From positions 501-64,500 of the forward strand of contig JBJEGN010000108.1 of NCBI GenBank assembly GCA_051875105.1: a DNA stretch of 64,000 bases, written 5' to 3'. A model generated the notes under the pieces. That model was not told the origin of the DNA, searched no databases, and saw only the letters and a program-made list of their open reading frames with translations. A program made the translations under genes and the position numbers. Within the stretch, counting starts at the first letter, position 1. Each line of letters begins with the position of its first letter. Shown here piece by piece: positions 39,940-50,027 of this stretch. This DNA is from Candidatus Gastranaerophilaceae bacterium. Its GTDB lineage: Bacteria; Cyanobacteriota; Vampirovibrionia; Gastranaerophilales; Gastranaerophilaceae.

Positions 39940-40083
39940 CTATTTTTCATATCCATTTTTTGAAAAAATTTCTAAAATTTTAAAACATAGCTTTCGATTA
40001 CCTGTTTCAATACAATAGATATAAGAAGTTGACAATTCAAACAATTCAAAAGATTTTTCTTGAGTTAAAATACTTTTACTCAC
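39940..40083 (-). pseudogene. truncated XRE-type HTH remnant (47 codons, GTG start)
   Basis: Manual translation gives VSKSILTQEKSFELFELSTSYIYCIETGNRKLCFKILEIFSKNGYEK. This matches helices 2-3 of Cro/C1 HTH proteins but lacks helix 1, and an in-frame stop lies two codons upstream. Confidence 0.3.
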
Positions 40084-40325
40084 AGATTTTCAAGTTTTTA
40101 TCCCAATTTTTCGTAATTAATTGTTGTAATAAAATCCTCCGATTATAGGGTTTCTATTTCAACTTAATAAAAAAGATTTTTTATTTTTTTTAAACAAAAT
40201 TTATACTATTTATGATTGTATATTCATTGTTCAAACTCGTAAATTTTTAACAAAAAGAGTTATTCATAAATTCAATTTTATACAACAAAAAAATTTCAAA
40301 CTCTATTTCTCTGTGATTCACAGAA

Positions 40326-40829
40326 TTAGTCATTAACTAAATCTGCCCAATATCCATGATTAAGATTATGATACAAAATTTCATATAGCCTTGTTAATTT
40401 GTAAATATGGTCATCTTCTTTACTTAATTTCTTTGACAAATCACACTCGTATTTACTCTTACATTTATTGCAATTATAAAGTGCTTGCGAACAATCTTGA
40501 TTGTATTTGGTAAAACAGCCTTGTTTCTTCACAAAAATTCTTCTTGCCAAAATACGATGTTTTCTCAACTCTTGCATTGGTCGAATATATCCGTTAAAAT
40601 ATCTGTCAAATTCTTTTAGAAAAAGAGTATCGTCTATGATTGTAAGACATAACCGCTTAGAAAAACCTCGTTTGCAAACATACCTTGGACAAGGAATATC
40701 AATTTTTATATTTTTTACATCAAAATCCCATTTATGTTGCTCATAATCTCTTATCATTCTTCTGAAATAATGAAGATAATCAATTTTTCCAAAATTTTTA
40801 TAAACAGCATGTCTTAATGATGAAACCAT
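40326..40829 (-). CDS. Cys-rich hypothetical protein (orphan)
   Basis: 167-aa ORF with a strong AGGAGG RBS and about ten scattered Cys residues, including C-N-K-C. No family recognised. Confidence 0.5.
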   Translation of the reverse strand: MVSSLRHAVYKNFGKIDYLHYFRRMIRDYEQHKWDFDVKNIKIDIPCPRYVCKRGFSKRLCLTIIDDTLFLKEFDRYFNGYIRPMQELRKHRILARRIFVKKQGCFTKYNQDCSQALYNCNKCKSKYECDLSKKLSKEDDHIYKLTRLYEILYHNLNHGYWADLVND

Positions 40830-41063
40830 ACAAGCCTCCTTTTTATAAATTTTATAAAAAGCAAGACTTATTTTGAAGAAGAATTATTAATAGAATTTAT
40901 ATGAAGCTTAATTTTTATGAAAACTTCCGATTTATATATCAAACTCGTTATACTTTATGTCGAAATTTCTGTTAATAAAAAAATCTCACACAAAAATACT
41001 ATAAAAAATTTTTATTAAATATGGTCTTCGATGAAAACTATACTCTTTAGATTCTCTTAAAAA

Positions 41064-41129
41064 TAATCGAACCCTTAAAATTAAATCAAGACAATAAAAA
41101 AGAGCCTTTAAAGGCTCTTATGTTTTAAA
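41064..41129 (-). repeat. ~66-nt tRNA 3'-trailer module, copy A (homologous to 50877-50942)
   Basis: The reverse complement aligns with the tRNA-Ala trailer. The first 41 nt are identical except one position (TTAAAACATAAGAGCC[T/A]TTAAAGGCTCTTTTTTATTGTCTT), followed by about 25 nt of partial identity. Confidence 0.85.
41094..41120 (-). terminator. intrinsic terminator after tRNA-Met
   Basis: AAGAGCC-TTTAA-AGGCTCTT hairpin followed by TTTTTT on the minus strand. Confidence 0.7.
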
Positions 41130-41204
41130 TGGTGGGCCCGGTAGGATTCGAACCTACGACCAAAGGATTATGAGTCCTCTGCGCTACCGCTGCGCCACAA
41201 GCCC
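41130..41204 (-). tRNA. tRNA-Met or tRNA-Ile2 (anticodon CAU), CCA encoded
   Basis: Acceptor GGGCTTG/CGGGCCC with a paired 1-72 position (so not an initiator), anticodon loop CTCATAA, T-loop TTCGAAT, terminal CCA. Confidence 0.9.
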
Positions 41205-41521
41205 ATCATTCGTTATTCAATTTTTTTAAAGATGCGGTAGCTTCTGCGCTACCTACCTCTCGGGACGCCGATACTCAATCGGCTGTTGCTTTTATTTTTT
41301 ACTATCAGAGCCTGTACTTTTATCTGCTTCTCAGCAACCCCTCGGCAGAGTGCCACAAGCCCATCATTCGTTATTCAATTTTTTTAAAGATGCGGTAGCT
41401 TCTGCGCTACCTACCTCTCGGGACGCCGATATTCAATCGGCTGTTGCTTTTATTTTTTACTATCAGAGCCTGTACCTTTTATCTGCTTCTCAGCAACCCC
41501 TCGGCAGAGTGCCACAAGCCC
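41194..41521 (-). repeat. tandem direct repeat, two units of 158/159 nt plus an 11-nt partial, upstream of tRNA-Met
   Basis: GCCACAAGCCC occurs at 41194, 41352 and 41511. The units differ by one C/T substitution and a 1-nt indel. Each unit begins (minus strand) with tRNA positions 1-11 and also contains tRNA positions 17-27 (GGTAGCGCAGA). Confidence 0.92.
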
Positions 41522-41534
41522 TTCCGGTAATTTA

Positions 41535-41563
41535 AAATTATCATAAAGGCTTTGCTAAGTCAA
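41535..41563 (-). promoter_or_regulatory. near-consensus sigma70-type promoter driving the repeat array and tRNA-Met
   Basis: The minus strand reads TTGACT, then 17 nt, then TAATTT with a TG extension. The -10 element ends 14 nt before the first GGGCTTGTGGC. Confidence 0.55.
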
Positions 41564-41612
41564 GTGTATTCATACTCCTGTTATTTCATCATAAATATCA
41601 ATCATTCTAAAA

Positions 41613-41915
41613 CTATTTTTTGAAATATTTTGTTAAATATTCCATAATTTGATATTTCGTATGAAATCCGGAAAATCTTCCACTTTCTTTTCCATTTTGA
41701 AAAACAATAAATGTTGGATATCCTGTTATTCCATATCGCATGACTATTTCCGGAGTTTCCTCCGCATTTAGCATTCCAAATTCAATTTCTTTCATTTCGT
41801 TTAATACAGAAAATTGTTTTGAGCAGTATCCACACCAAATAGCATAAAATTCAACAATTTTAAGACCTGTAGATATATAATTATCAAATGTAGTACCATT
41901 TAATTTTGTTATCAT
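41613..41915 (-). CDS. thioredoxin-family protein
   Basis: WCGYC active-site motif. I set the start at MITKLNG, which is preceded by AAAGGAGAAAAG. Confidence 0.75.
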   Translation of the reverse strand: MITKLNGTTFDNYISTGLKIVEFYAIWCGYCSKQFSVLNEMKEIEFGMLNAEETPEIVMRYGITGYPTFIVFQNGKESGRFSGFHTKYQIMEYLTKYFKK

Positions 41916-41979
41916 CTTTTCTCCTTTTTGGGGAAAGTATAACAAAATCAATGATTGAAACTATCAGTCAAATGGATAC

Positions 41980-42465
41980 CTATATCTCGGTTATATTATC
42001 TTCAATAAGATATTTCATTTCTTCGTGAAAGTCTGCTTGAGCAATCTTTTCGATAGGAAGTTTTATATATTTGACAATGCCATCGGCATATACTATTCCT
42101 TCTTTATCCATAATCGAAACTTCTGCAATAAAGAATTTCGACAAATCTTTTACTACAATCCCTTTGCCGATTAAATCAGTTTCATAGGGAACAGGTTTAC
42201 GAAATTTTGTTTCCATTGACATTGTTGCACCAAGCATTGTTTCGTCTTTACACCAATAAGCTCTAAATGCAAGTTCATCTATCATTGTAGCTATTAAGCC
42301 GCCATGAACTCTTTGAGGAAAACTTTGATGGACCTTTCTATATTGAAATTTTGTCATTACAGAGCCATCTTCCATATTGTAAAACTGTGCTTTTAAACCT
42401 TCCGGATTTTCCATTCCGCAAATATAACACATCTTGCTGTTTCTTTGTTTACCTACAACCTTCAT
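41980..42465 (-). CDS. PaaI-family (hotdog fold) thioesterase
   Basis: 161 aa with VHGGLIATMIDE, typical of the PaaI/YbgC-like hotdog fold. Confidence 0.7.
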   Translation of the reverse strand: MKVVGKQRNSKMCYICGMENPEGLKAQFYNMEDGSVMTKFQYRKVHQSFPQRVHGGLIATMIDELAFRAYWCKDETMLGATMSMETKFRKPVPYETDLIGKGIVVKDLSKFFIAEVSIMDKEGIVYADGIVKYIKLPIEKIAQADFHEEMKYLIEDNITEI

Positions 42466-42478
42466 TTTGACCTATTTT

Positions 42479-43636
42479 CTACTGAGAAATATCATCTGTA
42501 TCTTCCGCTTGTTGAACCGATTTTTCCAAAAATTCATTTCTGTTGTCTTCATCAACTGTAAGCATTCCTAACTCACTTCTATCAGAATTATTAAAAATTT
42601 CCGCATAATCATACGTATAAATCCTGCCAAAGTCAATTTTTCCGTTCGTCATTGACTCCAAAACAATTCTACCGACAATCGGAGTCGGCATTGTTATACC
42701 TGAAAAATATTTCATATTGGGGGAAATTGCCTCATTTGTAATGGGACAAGGATATTCAAAGTCAAAGACAGGGGCAAATTTACTTATTTCATCTTTCCAT
42801 TCAAAATATGTATTATATATACCAATTTTTTTCATTAATTGCATATTCATTAAATGAGAAGGCATTATAAATACATACAAATCCTTTTCCTGTTCGGCAC
42901 AAATTCTTTGAAGTTCTTCTACTACATTAACAAAAGTTTTGTCGTATTGAAAATTTTCATAAATTCCTGTATATTCTATAACGGAATTTTCCATTGTATT
43001 TTTTATATTTTCATCAGGGCAAACTATTTTTATCCCATTAAAATCAAACATACCCGATTTTTTTCCAATGGCATTGATGAAAAGAGTATAAATAGATTCT
43101 CTCACACCGGATAAAGAGAACAATGACGTATAAATTTCCGATAACGTTAAATATCCATTTTTAACAGTTTTGAACTTTTTTATTTTTTTATTTTTTTCTT
43201 TATCAAAAGTCACAAAATCCAAGTTTACAAATACATTTTTAATTTCAGGATGAATTTTCAATGCAGATTGCAAAACGGCAGGATAGTCTTTTATTGAATA
43301 CCCGGAACTCGCCAAATTTACAGCATCTAATCCTGTTATATTTTTATATTCATTTACGTCAATAGAAAAATCAGCCTTTTGAGAACCGATAAAAACCGTA
43401 TTTATTTTTCTTGAATCCAATTTTAAAGAAATAATTTTCGATTTAATCAAATGTTTTTTAGCCATTGGTTTTATTGATATTGCAGCATTTTTTTGCAAAG
43501 GAAAAATATTATAAGGATTTACAAAAAAATTTATTGTAGCAGAAAATAATAAATAAATGACGAAAATTATAAAAATTTTCACCTTATACCTGTTAATTTT
43601 GTTCCATACTACAATACAAAAATTTTTCATAAGCAA
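42479..43636 (-). CDS. membrane-anchored hypothetical protein (possibly a DltD/SGNH-like acyl-transfer accessory protein)
   Basis: An N-terminal TM anchor followed by a ~340-aa extracytoplasmic domain. The resemblance to DltD-type proteins rests only on size and topology. Confidence 0.45.
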   Translation of the reverse strand: MLMKNFCIVVWNKINRYKVKIFIIFVIYLLFSATINFFVNPYNIFPLQKNAAISIKPMAKKHLIKSKIISLKLDSRKINTVFIGSQKADFSIDVNEYKNITGLDAVNLASSGYSIKDYPAVLQSALKIHPEIKNVFVNLDFVTFDKEKNKKIKKFKTVKNGYLTLSEIYTSLFSLSGVRESIYTLFINAIGKKSGMFDFNGIKIVCPDENIKNTMENSVIEYTGIYENFQYDKTFVNVVEELQRICAEQEKDLYVFIMPSHLMNMQLMKKIGIYNTYFEWKDEISKFAPVFDFEYPCPITNEAISPNMKYFSGITMPTPIVGRIVLESMTNGKIDFGRIYTYDYAEIFNNSDRSELGMLTVDEDNRNEFLEKSVQQAEDTDDISQ

Positions 43637-49637: not shown

Positions 49638-50027
49638 GGGGACGCTTTGGATTTGACGGGGCGATTGAGGTAATCGTGCTGCGGGTTCCGGCGCTGTTCC
49701 GGGTTATCAACGAGCAAACGATTTACATGCTAACAATGTAATCAAAGCTGACTTCTCAAGAGCAAGAGCTCTTGCTGCTTAGTATTTAAGCAGGTCACCT
49801 CTGTACGACCAGCTTGCCGTTTTGCAGGGGAAATTATGCAAGTTGCTGCGTATGACGGCTGTAAATACGCCTAAGACAACAGCCAAACTCGGCAGAGTAT
49901 AAAGTGCTTTATCGTTATGTAGGGAATTGGTTCGAGCCGCAATAACGATGAGAAAAACAGACCTACATCCGTAGATGTACGATTGTTTCCGTTTCGGACG
50001 TGAGTTCGACTCTCACCGTCTCCACCA
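49638..50027 (+). ncRNA. ssrA: tmRNA (SsrA)
   Basis: The 5' GGGGACG pairs with the 3' CGTCTCC-ACCA, giving a G3:U70 pair. T-arm-like GAGTTCGACTCTC. The tag reading frame at 49729-49782 encodes ANNVIKADFSRARALAA followed by a stop. Confidence 0.93.

What the first reader, a model, noticed from the sequence alone, without database searches (positions are those of the whole stretch)
41194..41563. A promoter, two near-identical ~158-nt units built around tRNA-Met fragments, and then tRNA-Met: candidate tRNA-linked structured RNA array
Seen directly:
- The first 11 nt of the minus-strand tRNA(CAU) gene (GGGCTTGTGGC) occur three times at 158 and 159-nt spacing. The last occurrence is the tRNA itself.
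- The two intervening units differ only by one C/T substitution and a 1-nt indel.
- About 105 nt after its 5' tRNA fragment, each unit contains a second tRNA-derived 11-mer, GGTAGCGCAGA (tRNA positions 17-27). Each unit therefore looks like a tRNA 5' third interrupted in the D-loop.
- Each unit has obvious hairpins: GCCGAT-TGA(G/A)T-ATCGGC, where the only substitution falls in the loop; GGTAGC-GCAGAA-GCTACC; and long-range GTTGCT...AGCAAC.
- The only good promoter (TTGACT, 17 nt, TAATTT with a TG extension) sits just upstream of the first unit, at the distance expected for a tRNA promoter. No promoter is evident directly upstream of the real tRNA.

Inference: the array is probably transcribed as a ~330-nt leader and released by RNase P processing of the tRNA. 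It may be an undescribed tRNA-derived or tRNA-linked ncRNA. Alternatively it may be the footprint of an insertion flanked by an 11-bp duplication that was then tandemly duplicated.
Basis: partly seen in the sequence, partly recalled or inferred. Interest (0 to 1): 0.65.

Follow-up and report, generated by a model that had tools for sequence, protein, structure and literature searches.

The report
Pseudo-tRNA leader repeats before tRNA-Met
Two tandem 158/159-nt copies of a cut-down tRNA-Met gene, each carrying a conserved structured hairpin where the D-loop should be, lie between the promoter and the real tRNA; they belong to an undescribed repeat family found in front of tRNA genes throughout gut Melainabacteria (Gastranaerophilales), and its function is unknown.

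Summary
On the minus strand there is a promoter, unit A (41521-41363), unit B (41362-41205), tRNA(CAU) (41204-41130) and a terminator.

The units are not a one-off. More than 100 Gastranaerophilales MAGs carry 1-5 tandem units of mostly ~100-130 nt upstream of tRNA-Met. Rarer units stand upstream of tRNA-Lys, Leu, Val and Ala.

Each unit contains:
- the cognate tRNA's first 11 nt;
- a conserved hairpin module, ACUCUGCCGA-[covarying stem, U-R-A-R-U loop]-GAGAGGNAGG;
- the tRNA's GGUAG D-loop segment;
- a short hairpin, often followed by an acceptor-like complement.

Canonical units fold as a cloverleaf-like mini-tRNA (z about -5). The window's subfamily adds a nested ~54-nt insert and folds less decisively (z -2).

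The same module also occurs in other settings: inside a full second tRNA-Met copy, mirrored at the tRNA 3' end, and at the tips of GC-rich hairpins. It is also homogenised within genomes, so it is mobile or gene-converted.

Copy number varies within the window's own species (1 or 2). There is no Rfam, phage-contig or literature match.

Best reading: a co-transcribed, RNase-P-removed pseudo-tRNA leader carrying an RNA module under selection. Transcription and processing are inferred, not shown.

The parts
41535..41563 (-). Promoter-like site: -35 TTGACT (41563-41558), 17-nt spacer, TG-extended -10 TGATAATTT (41543-41535). Unit A starts 13 nt after the -10.
   Evidence: Read directly. The same TTGACT...TATGATAATTT is conserved in L001 and L074. 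Analogous TTGAC-17-TAnnnT sites lie just upstream of the first unit, or of the tRNA where no unit exists, in other species. The simple consensus scan does not call it.
41363..41521 (-). Unit A (159 nt), promoter-proximal pseudo-tRNA leader unit.
   Evidence: CM R1 hit of 43.3 bits, E 3.5e-9.
41205..41362 (-). Unit B (158 nt), tRNA-proximal leader unit. It differs from A by one loop transition and a 1-nt indel.
   Evidence: CM R1 hit of 43.4 bits.
41511..41521 (-). Unit A 5' fragment GGGCTTGTGGC, equal to tRNA nt 1-11. The unit B copy is at 41352-41362.
   Evidence: In other species the fragment follows the cognate tRNA's own 5' end.
41410..41510 (-). Unit A hairpin module. It comprises foot ACTCTGCCGA (41510-41501), lower stem GGGG/(G)TCCC, a nested ~54-nt insert (41496-41443), the upper hairpin GCCGAT-TGAAT-ATCGGC (41441-41425) and foot GAGAGGTAGG (41419-41410).
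   Evidence: Module consensus and covariation come from relatives.
41252..41351 (-). Unit B hairpin module. Same parts as unit A: insert 41337-41285, upper hairpin 41283-41267 with loop TGAGT, feet 41351-41342 and 41261-41252.
41466..41474 (-). UACAGGCUC inside the nested insert, complementary to the unit's (and the tRNA's) 5' GGGCUUGUG. The unit B copy is at 41308-41316.
   Evidence: The MFE folds of the window, L001 and L074 units all use this pairing. Shuffle p is 0.005-0.06. Suggestive only.
41394..41411 (-). Hairpin P4, GGTAGC-GCAGAA-GCTACC. Its 5' strand equals the tRNA D-loop/stem nt 17-22. The unit B copy is at 41236-41253.
   Evidence: The stem is kept in 95.8% of cells across relatives while the loop varies.
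41363..41393 (-). Pyrimidine tail GCATCTTT (can pair with GAGAGG) plus the A-rich spacer AAAAAAATTGAATAACGAATGAT. The unit B copy is at 41205-41235.
   Evidence: The spacer motif TTGAmAAyTrAATA recurs before units and tRNAs in other species.
41130..41204 (-). tRNA(CAU) with encoded CCA. G1:C72 and a GAGGA/UCCUU anticodon stem make it elongator-type: Met by ARAGORN, with tRNA-Ile2 not excluded.
41092..41119 (-). Intrinsic terminator of the tRNA transcription unit (8-bp stem, then TTTTTTATTG).

Best explanation
Each unit is a cut-down copy of the tRNA gene. It keeps nt 1-11 and about nt 17-27, and in canonical relatives also a remnant of the 3' acceptor strand. Where the D-loop should be it carries a conserved ~45-nt hairpin module; in this lineage the module is enlarged by a nested ~54-nt insert.

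Proposed mechanism:
1. The two units are transcribed from the single promoter together with the tRNA, as a ~330-nt 5' leader.
2. The leader is detached when RNase P matures the tRNA 5' end. In canonical ~100-nt relatives the unit folds as a cloverleaf-like mini-tRNA, in which the acceptor-like helix P1 stacks on hairpin P4. RNase P could therefore also cut at each unit boundary and release tRNA-sized RNAs.
3. The selected part is the module as a single-stranded hairpin: an invariant foot with a GA/GAGA internal loop, a freely covarying upper stem, and a U-R-A-R-U loop. It is most likely a binding site for a conserved cellular factor.
4. Arrays grow, shrink and move between tRNA loci by unequal recombination or gene conversion across the short tRNA-identical segments. 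This keeps each unit's 5' 11-mer identical to its tRNA.

Shown: the anatomy, the family, covariation, copy-number dynamics and multi-tRNA association.
Inferred: transcription, RNase P processing, and any trans function.
For: Family and position:
- 62 GTDB species share the tRNA 5' 40-mer. About 25 of them have 1-3 units between a TTGAC-17-TAnnnT promoter and the tRNA. Syntenic relatives without units have the promoter directly at the tRNA.
- A metagenome scan gave arrays of up to 5 units.

Structure:
- All 10 P3 pairs covary and 92.9% of cells are paired. P4 is 95.8% paired. 0 of 500 shuffles reach the observed values.
- G-U/U-G pairs number 70 against 13 A-C/C-A in paired cells, so the hairpins are kept on the tRNA-sense strand.
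- Canonical units have cloverleaf-like MFE folds with z from -3.6 to -5.9.

Generality:
- Units with the cognate 5' fragment and the same module stand upstream of tRNA-Lys, Leu, Val and Ala.
- About 120 sense copies against 8 mirrored copies.

Dynamics:
- The same species carries one unit in runs X1 and X5, and the unit-unit junction in X8.
- In L080/L082 the tRNA-proximal units share the tRNA's C5 variant while the distal unit does not.
- Modules at different loci of one MAG are nearly identical.

Other:
- Metatranscriptome contigs from two gut runs hold unit plus tRNA on one contig.
- No other module copy occurs in the 64-kb window.
Against: - There is no clean RNA evidence. The RNA-run contigs also span promoter or upstream DNA and may be DNA carry-over.
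- The window's own units fold weakly (z -2.0, MFE frequency 0.02) and lack the canonical P1 tail.
- P1 is often uncompensated. 25 of 42 units whose 5' end carries C5 keep CAAGC. The cognate-versus-noncognate duplex test fails for the Lys units.
- Units are absent from most species that share the tRNA, and copy number varies within a species, so any function is dispensable.
- The module also occurs mirrored at the tRNA 3' end, where the tRNA transcript would carry its reverse complement. It also occurs in GC-rich hairpins and nested in other inserts. This points to a DNA-level step.
- No binding partner has been identified.
Confidence: 0.5

Rival explanations
1. Selfish or neutral DNA. The module is a small non-autonomous mobile hairpin (REPIN/MITE/SDR-like) that lands in hairpin-forming DNA such as tRNA-gene ends. 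The units are disrupted, internally deleted tRNA duplicates, and the arrays are recombination by-products. The RNA has no function beyond being a removable leader.
For: - The module occurs in several unrelated flanks and in both orientations relative to the tRNA.
- There are nested insertions (L068, L031b, the window insert) and serial modules (L081, L041).
- Four identical copies sit in GC-rich hairpins of one MAG, and P3 is similar within a genome across loci.
- Presence is patchy among close relatives, decayed copies exist, and copy number is polymorphic.
- All genuine copies are intergenic.
- G-T is also tolerated in ssDNA hairpins, so the GU>AC bias does not exclude a strand-specific ssDNA intermediate.
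Against:
- There is no target-site duplication and no conserved target word at the left flank.
- The foot and the purine-rich GA/GAGA loop are invariant across an order while the stem is saturated with compensatory changes. This is more typical of an RNA motif bound by a conserved host factor.
- More than 90% of tRNA-linked copies are sense to the tRNA and inside its transcription unit.
- No transposase association was seen, though none was systematically searched for.
Confidence: 0.3
2. Cis-regulatory leader. The unit is an aptamer- or sensor-like three- or four-way junction that modulates transcription, folding or processing of the downstream tRNA. One possible route is competition between its tRNA-identical 5' strand, or the anti-5' segment, and the tRNA acceptor stem.
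For: - It lies in the 5' leader of the tRNA gene.
- The junction nucleotides are conserved.
- Its 5' strand is identical to the tRNA's.
- In the window subfamily a segment is complementary to that strand.
Against: - There is no terminator or other expression platform after the unit. P4 is not followed by a U-run.
- Up to 5 near-identical copies occur in series, and many close relatives have none.
- The module also occurs outside leaders.
- There is no Rfam riboswitch or T-box hit even at E<=10.
Confidence: 0.08
3. Decaying tRNA pseudogene copies with no selection on the units at all.
For: - The units are visibly tRNA-derived (nt 1-11, nt 17-27, and CUACCG + acceptor-like 3' strand).
- Truncated and degenerate copies exist (L036 upstream, L045, L062, L065, L066).
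Against: - P3 shows compensatory changes at all 10 pairs, and GU exceeds AC.
- The non-tRNA foot sequences are invariant across >100 MAGs.
- Two units in one array (L085a/b) differ by four compensated pairs.
Confidence: 0.05
4. Each unit is a small self-cleaving ribozyme that processes the multimeric leader. Its three-way junction has hammerhead-like topology: P1/P3/P4 correspond to stems I/II/III, CUGCCGA...GAGA resembles CUGANGA...GAAA, and a GA tandem closes P3.
For: - Tandem unit arrays.
- Conserved purine-rich junction strands.
- The topology and partial core resemblance are read from the consensus.
Against: - The core positions that are invariant in hammerheads differ (A6->C, A14->G), and the junction strands are much longer.
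- There is no hit to any Rfam ribozyme family at E<=10.
- The module occurs without P1 and P4 in other contexts.
- P1 is frequently absent.
Confidence: 0.04
5. Assembly artefact or chance repeat.
For: Short-read assemblers can mis-handle tandem repeats. Logan contigs of X1 and X5 show a single unit.
Against: - The two copies differ at two sites.
- The junction k-mers are present in an independent run (X8).
- Tandem arrays recur in dozens of independent MAGs.
- Shuffles give 0 expected matches.
Confidence: 0.01

Closest known systems
E. coli tyrT operon 178-bp repeats / rtT RNA (rttR; Rfam RF00391). The repeat structure is from my own knowledge; the function summary is as cited in bioRxiv 10.1101/2024.07.17.603846.
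   Same: - Tandem repeats inside a tRNA transcription unit.
- Each repeat carries a terminal fragment of the adjacent tRNA.
- The RNA is thought to be released as a by-product of tRNA processing.
- The function is obscure.
- The mirrored arrays here (L027, L176), between the tRNA 3' end and its terminator, resemble the tyrT layout even more closely.
   Different: - Here the repeats are mostly upstream and carry the 5' fragment.
- They contain an additional conserved hairpin module.
- They occur at several tRNA genes.
- They are restricted to Gastranaerophilales.
- There is no sequence or structure match to RF00391.
tRNA-like processing elements: plant mitochondrial t-elements, MALAT1 mascRNA (own knowledge).
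   Same: They are truncated or divergent tRNA-shaped structures within longer transcripts that RNase P and/or RNase Z can recognise. The canonical units have acceptor-like P1 (7 bp) stacked on P4 (6 bp), close to the 12-bp acceptor/T minihelix.
   Different: - No T-loop or D-loop consensus.
- No CCA or discriminator.
- Processing has not been tested.
- They sit in front of a tRNA that is processed by RNase P anyway.
Small hairpin repeats: REP/REPIN (PMC3116915), GTAG-tagged palindromes (PMC3733652), cyanobacterial small dispersed repeats (cited in PMC3116915).
   Same: - A short imperfect palindrome.
- Intergenic location.
- Nested insertions.
- Near-identity of copies within a genome.
- Presence/absence differences between relatives.
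- A hairpin kept on one strand.
   Different: - Very low copy number.
- Strong bias to tRNA leaders in the sense orientation.
- An invariant purine-rich internal loop.
- No mobilising gene identified.
- No fixed target word or duplication.
Engineered 'tRNA scaffold' for expressing structured RNAs (own knowledge).
   Same: A foreign structured hairpin is displayed from a tRNA-derived frame that supplies RNase P processing and stability. L049 and L179 carry the module in an otherwise complete tRNA-Met.
   Different: - This is a natural case.
- The insertion is in the D-loop rather than the anticodon arm.
- Most copies have lost the anticodon and T arms.
- Stability and processing are untested.
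Partial tRNA duplicates at integration sites of phages and genomic islands (own knowledge).
   Same: A short tRNA-identical fragment is repeated next to an intact tRNA gene.
   Different: - Those are 3' fragments separated by kilobases of integrated DNA carrying an integrase.
- Here 11-nt 5' fragments recur every 100-160 nt.
- There were 0 hits in viral contigs.

Membership tests
tRNA (RF00005) | Cloverleaf with conserved D- and T-loop nucleotides, detected by ARAGORN or the Rfam tRNA model. | tested here: not met
   Only 41130-41204 is called. The units give no tRNA hit, even at E<=10. Canonical relatives fold into a cloverleaf-like shape but lack T- and D-loop consensus.
rtT RNA / tyrT repeats (RF00391) | Tandem repeats in a tRNA operon, each holding a terminal tRNA fragment. 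| tested here: met
   The 11-nt 5' fragment occurs in every unit, and the arrangement is tandem. The fragment is 5' rather than 3', except in the mirrored arrays.
rtT RNA / tyrT repeats (RF00391) | Sequence and structure homology to the Rfam model. | tested here: not met
   No RF00391 hit in the window or the region at E<=10.
rtT RNA / tyrT repeats (RF00391) | Release of a discrete RNA by processing of the tRNA transcript. | not testable with these tools
   Only assembled contigs of RNA runs were available, and they are ambiguous.
REP / REPIN | Dispersed at tens to hundreds of copies per genome. | tested here: inconclusive
   Two copies occur in the 64-kb window, both in the array. No complete genome could be censused.
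REP / REPIN | Associated RAYT (TnpA-REP) gene. | not tested
   No protein search was made for it.
MITE | Terminal inverted repeats flanked by a target-site duplication. | tested here: not met
   The flanks of the module differ on the two sides and between contexts. There is no duplicated word.
Hammerhead ribozyme | Core CUGANGA ... GAAA ... UH at a three-way junction. | tested here: not met
   The consensus has CUGCCGA and GAGAGG, and the junction strands are longer. There is no Rfam hammerhead hit.
Kink-turn | C-stem, 3-nt bulge, tandem sheared G.A/A.G, NC-stem on the correct strands. | tested here: inconclusive
   GA (5' strand) and GAGA (3' strand) flank P3, so tandem G.A pairs are possible. 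By reading the consensus, the unpaired nucleotides are a 4-nt bulge or lie on the opposite strand, depending on which lower stem forms. No 3D or probing data are available.
Riboswitch / T-box leader | An aptamer followed by an expression platform (terminator/antiterminator or RBS sequestration), and a match to a known family. | tested here: not met
   No terminator-like site follows the units on the minus strand. There is no Rfam cis-regulatory hit.

The most novel reading that the evidence does not exclude
The conserved hairpin is a new kind of mobile structured-RNA module that colonises the D-loop position of tRNA-gene copies. It would use the tRNA-derived frame as a natural 'tRNA scaffold', with RNase P-defined ends, stability and tRNA-promoter-coupled dosage through 1-5 tandem units. 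The product would be a small RNA with a trans function, for example titrating a conserved protein, in an uncultivated bacterial order.
Probability: 0.25. Interest if true: 0.85.

Novelty: new variant of a known kind. Interest (0 to 1): 0.62.

Why it matters
If the units are expressed and stable, this is an order-wide, undescribed family of tRNA-derived structured RNAs. It has strong covariation and a built-in, naturally variable gene dosage that is tied to tRNA promoters.

It would be the first bacterial example I know of where a conserved RNA module is displayed from a tRNA frame at several different tRNA loci. It would also give a comparative handle on the poorly understood E. coli rtT-type tRNA-linked repeats.

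If instead it is selfish DNA, it is an unusual low-copy hairpin element with tRNA-end specificity.

Practically, the units explain long 'empty' tRNA leaders in Melainabacteria MAGs, and they are a likely cause of assembly breaks and copy-number errors there.

Tried and rejected
- Tandem Repeats Finder found nothing at 40000-43000 although the repeat is obvious. I treat this as a tool miss.
- Rfam gave only tRNAs and tmRNA at gathering thresholds, and only junk hits on the units at E<=10. There were also no hits on five relatives' loci. T-box, riboswitch, ribozyme, 5S and tmRNA-like readings were therefore dropped. Short word resemblances to 5S rRNA (GAGAGUAGG, GUAGCGC, UGCCGAAC, from memory) are in a different order and were set aside.
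- Synteny search with the upstream thioredoxin (Pfam PF00085) returned only the same Melainabacteria contig. The unit travels with the tRNA, not with the gene.
- Intron reading: removing the module does not restore nt 12-16 of the tRNA. Rejected.
- Integrative-element att duplication: it has the wrong end, the wrong scale and no phage hits.
- RNAalifold on the raw MAFFT alignment mis-paired P3. This was solved by building CM R1 and realigning.
- Alignment A2 contained a hand-made chimera and a mistyped row. It was discarded and never used.
- P1 tests gave mixed results. Per-unit shuffle tests are mostly non-significant because the G/U-rich 5' strand pairs promiscuously. Cognate-versus-noncognate duplex energies favour cognate overall (Wilcoxon p 6e-8) but not for the Lys-type units. 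C5 units mostly keep CAAGC. I therefore do not claim P1 as proven.
- The simple promoter scan did not list the minus-strand promoter.
- RNA runs provided only assembled contigs, with no read ends.
- Orientation of non-tRNA module copies relative to neighbouring ORFs was mixed and uninformative.
- Literature searches for Melainabacteria/Gastranaerophilales structured RNAs and tRNA-linked repeats found nothing relevant.
Full report
**1. What is in the window.**

On the minus strand the region reads as follows:
- a thioredoxin gene (41915-41613; Pfam PF00085);
- a promoter-like site: TTGACT at 41563-41558, 17 nt, then TG-n-TAATTT at 41543-41535;
- unit A (41521-41363, 159 nt);
- unit B (41362-41205, 158 nt);
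- tRNA(CAU) (41204-41130, CCA encoded);
- a hairpin plus T-run terminator (41119-41100).

The repeat is exact apart from one loop transition (41432 versus 41274) and one extra G (41475). Unit probes hit only these two places in 64 kb, with 0 expected by chance.

The tRNA has G1:C72 and a GAGGA/UCCUU anticodon stem, so it is an elongator type. ARAGORN calls it Met; tRNA-Ile2 is not excluded.

**2. It is a family, not a local accident.**

- A 22-nt unit probe found one GTDB genome, a Melainabacteria MAG. There the same thioredoxin, promoter and tRNA enclose a single 154-nt unit.
- Searching the tRNA's first 40 nt found 62 species, nearly all Gastranaerophilales.
- About 25 of these have 1-3 tandem units immediately upstream of the tRNA, always downstream of a TTGAC-17-TAnnnT promoter.
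- Syntenic relatives without units have the promoter directly at the tRNA. For example L022, L064, L040 and L055 lack units, while L019, L050 and L052 have them.
- One metagenome scan added 19 contigs. These include an array of five units (L085) and a close relative of the window with two 153-nt units (L074).
- In strict counts over everything fetched, array sizes were 1 (64 arrays), 2 (26), 3 (5) and 5 (1).

**3. Anatomy of the canonical unit (~100 nt).**

The consensus is GGGCUUGUGGC | ACUCUGCCGA - P3 hairpin - GAGAGGNA | GGUAGC - loop - GCUACC - G - (CAAGCC or another complement of the 5' end) - A-rich spacer.

- The first 11 nt and GGUAGCGCAG are tRNA nt 1-11 and 17-27.
- CUACCG followed by the acceptor-like strand resembles the tRNA's T-stem/acceptor 3' side.
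- The unit therefore reads as a tRNA copy with an insert in the D-loop and with the anticodon and T region deleted.

A covariance model (P1, P3, P4) found 71 matches in 622 kb of loci plus the window. Only the two units matched in the window. On the model-derived alignment:
- all ten P3 pairs show double-sided changes (92.9% paired);
- P4 is 95.8% paired and P1 is 83.6% paired;
- no shuffle in 500 reaches the observed values, and slid controls collapse to about 40% paired.

The alignment is fitted to the model. However, P3 covariation is also obvious by eye: CGAU/AUCG, UGAC/GUCA, AAAC/GUUU, GGUU/AACC. Two units of one array (L085a/b) differ by four compensated pairs.

G-U/U-G cells outnumber A-C/C-A cells 70 to 13. 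The helices are therefore maintained on the tRNA-sense strand, as RNA or as that strand's ssDNA.

Canonical units fold into a four-helix, cloverleaf-like MFE structure: P1 is 7 bp, then a 4-bp mini-arm or an alternative lower stem, then P3 and P4. Z-scores run from -3.6 to -5.9.

The foot of the module (ACUCUGCCGA / GAGAGGNAGG, leaving GA opposite GAGA next to P3) is invariant. The apical loop is U-R-A-R-U.

**4. The window's subfamily.**

The window, L001 and L074 share three changes:
- a ~54-nt insert inside the 5' side of P3 (41496-41443 and 41337-41285);
- loss of the canonical P1 tail;
- a pyrimidine tail complementary to GAGAGG.

The insert contains a segment complementary to the 5' fragment: UACAGGCUC in the window, CACAAGUU in L001, ACAAGUUC in L074. 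All three MFE folds use this pairing. Shuffle p is 0.005-0.06. Because the 5' strand is G/U-rich, transitions in the partner are automatically tolerated, so I rate this pairing as suggestive only.

The window units fold much less decisively than canonical ones (z -2.0).

**5. The module is a separable, spreading element.**

These are overwhelmingly Gastranaerophilales/Melainabacteria MAGs, plus a few chance hits without stem complementarity.

Among 187 stem-complementary copies:
- 94 stand before tRNA-Met with the same 5' end;
- 10 stand before tRNA-Lys(CUU), 3 before tRNA-Leu(UAA) and 3 before tRNA-Val(GAC);
- the tRNA-Ala(GGC) cases were read;
- each carries the cognate tRNA's own 5' fragment and its own GGUAG(C/A) segment.

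The module also occurs in other settings:
- inside complete second tRNA-Met copies with their own terminators (L049, L179);
- mirrored, attached to the antisense of the tRNA 3' end, between the tRNA and its terminator (8 copies in 6 MAGs, e.g. L027, L176);
- at the tip of GC-rich CCCUCCC...GGGAGGG hairpins, with four identical copies in one MAG;
- inside or around other unknown inserts (L036, L068);
- in series (L081, L041).

Within one MAG, modules at different tRNA loci share almost the same P3, whereas orthologous loci of other MAGs differ. All genuine non-tRNA copies are intergenic, with mixed orientation to neighbours. None was found in viral contigs.

**6. Dynamics.**

Logan contigs of two gut metagenomes (X1, X5) run unbroken from thioredoxin into the tRNA with exactly one unit, at 0-2 differences from the window. 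A pig-gut run (X8) has a contig across the unit-unit junction. Copy number is therefore polymorphic within the species, and the duplication is real.

In L080/L082 the tRNA and the tRNA-proximal units read GGGCCUG, while the promoter-proximal unit keeps GGGCUUG. This indicates conversion or unequal crossing-over between the tRNA and the units.

That process seems to outrun compensation. 25 of 42 C5 units keep CAAGC. A cognate-versus-noncognate duplex test favours cognate overall but not for the Lys units.

**7. Expression.**

No raw-read RNA data were available.
- A wastewater RNA-run contig covers 41471-41644, which includes the promoter.
- Two gut metatranscriptome runs contain contigs joining a related unit to the tRNA, but these also extend upstream.

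This is compatible with co-transcription and equally with DNA carry-over. I count transcription and processing as inferred. The inference rests on the conserved promoter position, the absence of a terminator between units and tRNA, and the established role of RNase P in removing tRNA 5' leaders.

**8. Interpretation.**

Most likely (about 0.5): a co-transcribed pseudo-tRNA leader whose selected core is the hairpin module acting as an RNA. The units are removed by RNase P. In the canonical form they are possibly released as tRNA-sized RNAs, because P1 plus P4 mimic the acceptor/T minihelix. Arrays are shaped by recombination across the tRNA-identical segments.

Main rival (about 0.3): the module is a low-copy selfish DNA hairpin, and the units are its debris.

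The mirrored copies, nested insertions and within-genome homogenisation require a DNA-level step under either view. The sense bias, the GU>AC asymmetry, the purine-rich invariant loop and the order-wide invariance at low copy number favour an RNA-level constraint.

Minor rivals are a cis-regulator, neutral pseudogenes, a self-cleaving ribozyme and an artefact. They are scored in their own sections.

**9. Comparison and novelty.**

The nearest known system is the E. coli tyrT repeat/rtT RNA. Others are tRNA-like processing elements (t-elements, mascRNA), REP/REPIN-type hairpin repeats, and the engineered tRNA scaffold.

None of the defining sequence or structure models match. Searches of the paper library found no description.

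I file it as a new variant of known kinds (tRNA-linked repeats / tRNA-derived structured RNA), with an undescribed conserved module.

Noticed in passing
window 49638-50027 (+): The tmRNA gene scores well (Rfam 110 bits), but ARAGORN's predicted tag peptide AAYDGCKYA* is unlike the usual ...ALAA ending. The tag call or the resume codon may be wrong, or the lineage may have an unusual tag.
   Followed up: no
window 41205-41220 and 41363-41378 (-); many loci, e.g. L053, L042, L012, L060: An A/T-rich motif, TTGA(A/C)AA(C/T)T(A/G)AATA, lies 8-20 nt upstream of tRNA starts and of every internal unit. It also occurs in species that have long leaders but no units. Its spacing is wrong for a sigma-70 promoter, and its function is unknown.
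   Followed up: partly
L042, L048, L007, L086:302-384, L081, L041:6301-6393: A second module type, ACGCGAG-[hairpin]-CGAGUUAG, occupies the same D-loop position. In L041 and L081 the two types, or two copies, sit in series within one unit.
   Followed up: partly
L049:1647-1765; L179 about 838-955: A complete second tRNA-Met copy with the module in its D-loop and its own terminator lies ~95 nt after the normal tRNA-Met. This arrangement is conserved in two species. It may be a recombinant, or a functional tRNA with an extra arm.
   Followed up: partly
L027 about 2480-2640; L176; L097, L133, L150, L153: Mirrored arrays: the module plus the antisense of the tRNA 3' fragment (TGGGCCCGGAG) is repeated between the tRNA 3' end and its terminator. 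This layout is like the E. coli tyrT/rtT repeats.
   Followed up: partly
L107:1729 and 3928, L182, L187 (one MAG); L108, L109, L090, L127, L131, L186: GC-rich hairpin repeats (CCCTCCC...GGGAGGG) carry the module at their tip, and some are followed by T-runs. Four copies in one MAG have identical modules. This looks like a REP-like family in these AT-rich genomes.
   Followed up: partly
L036:27-200 (+); L068:2120-2270; L053:6515-6595: An unknown structured sequence with closing helix GGAUUUGC/GCAAAUCC hosts the module. A related ~150-nt piece is nested inside a module in L068. There is no Rfam match.
   Followed up: partly
L091 about 2108 (-): A leader unit is followed by a tRNA-Met that lacks nt 1-21, and ARAGORN calls no tRNA there. 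It is probably a recombinational deletion between unit and tRNA, or a mis-assembly.
   Followed up: no
window 41267-41283 and 41425-41441 (+): On the plus strand, the reverse complement of the P3 hairpin followed by TGTTGCTTTT scores as terminator-like. It could stop antisense transcription into the thioredoxin gene.
   Followed up: no
window 41350-41535 (+): A 61-aa ORF lies entirely inside the repeat on the opposite strand. It is almost certainly spurious, but it could be mis-annotated as a gene.
   Followed up: no
L024, L033, L035, L039, L045, L060, L096, L104, L169: Several contigs with typical Gastranaerophilales tRNA-Met loci are deposited under other labels (Muribaculaceae, Heliobacteriaceae, Gammaproteobacteria, Brachyspira). 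This suggests mis-binned or mislabelled MAGs.
   Followed up: no
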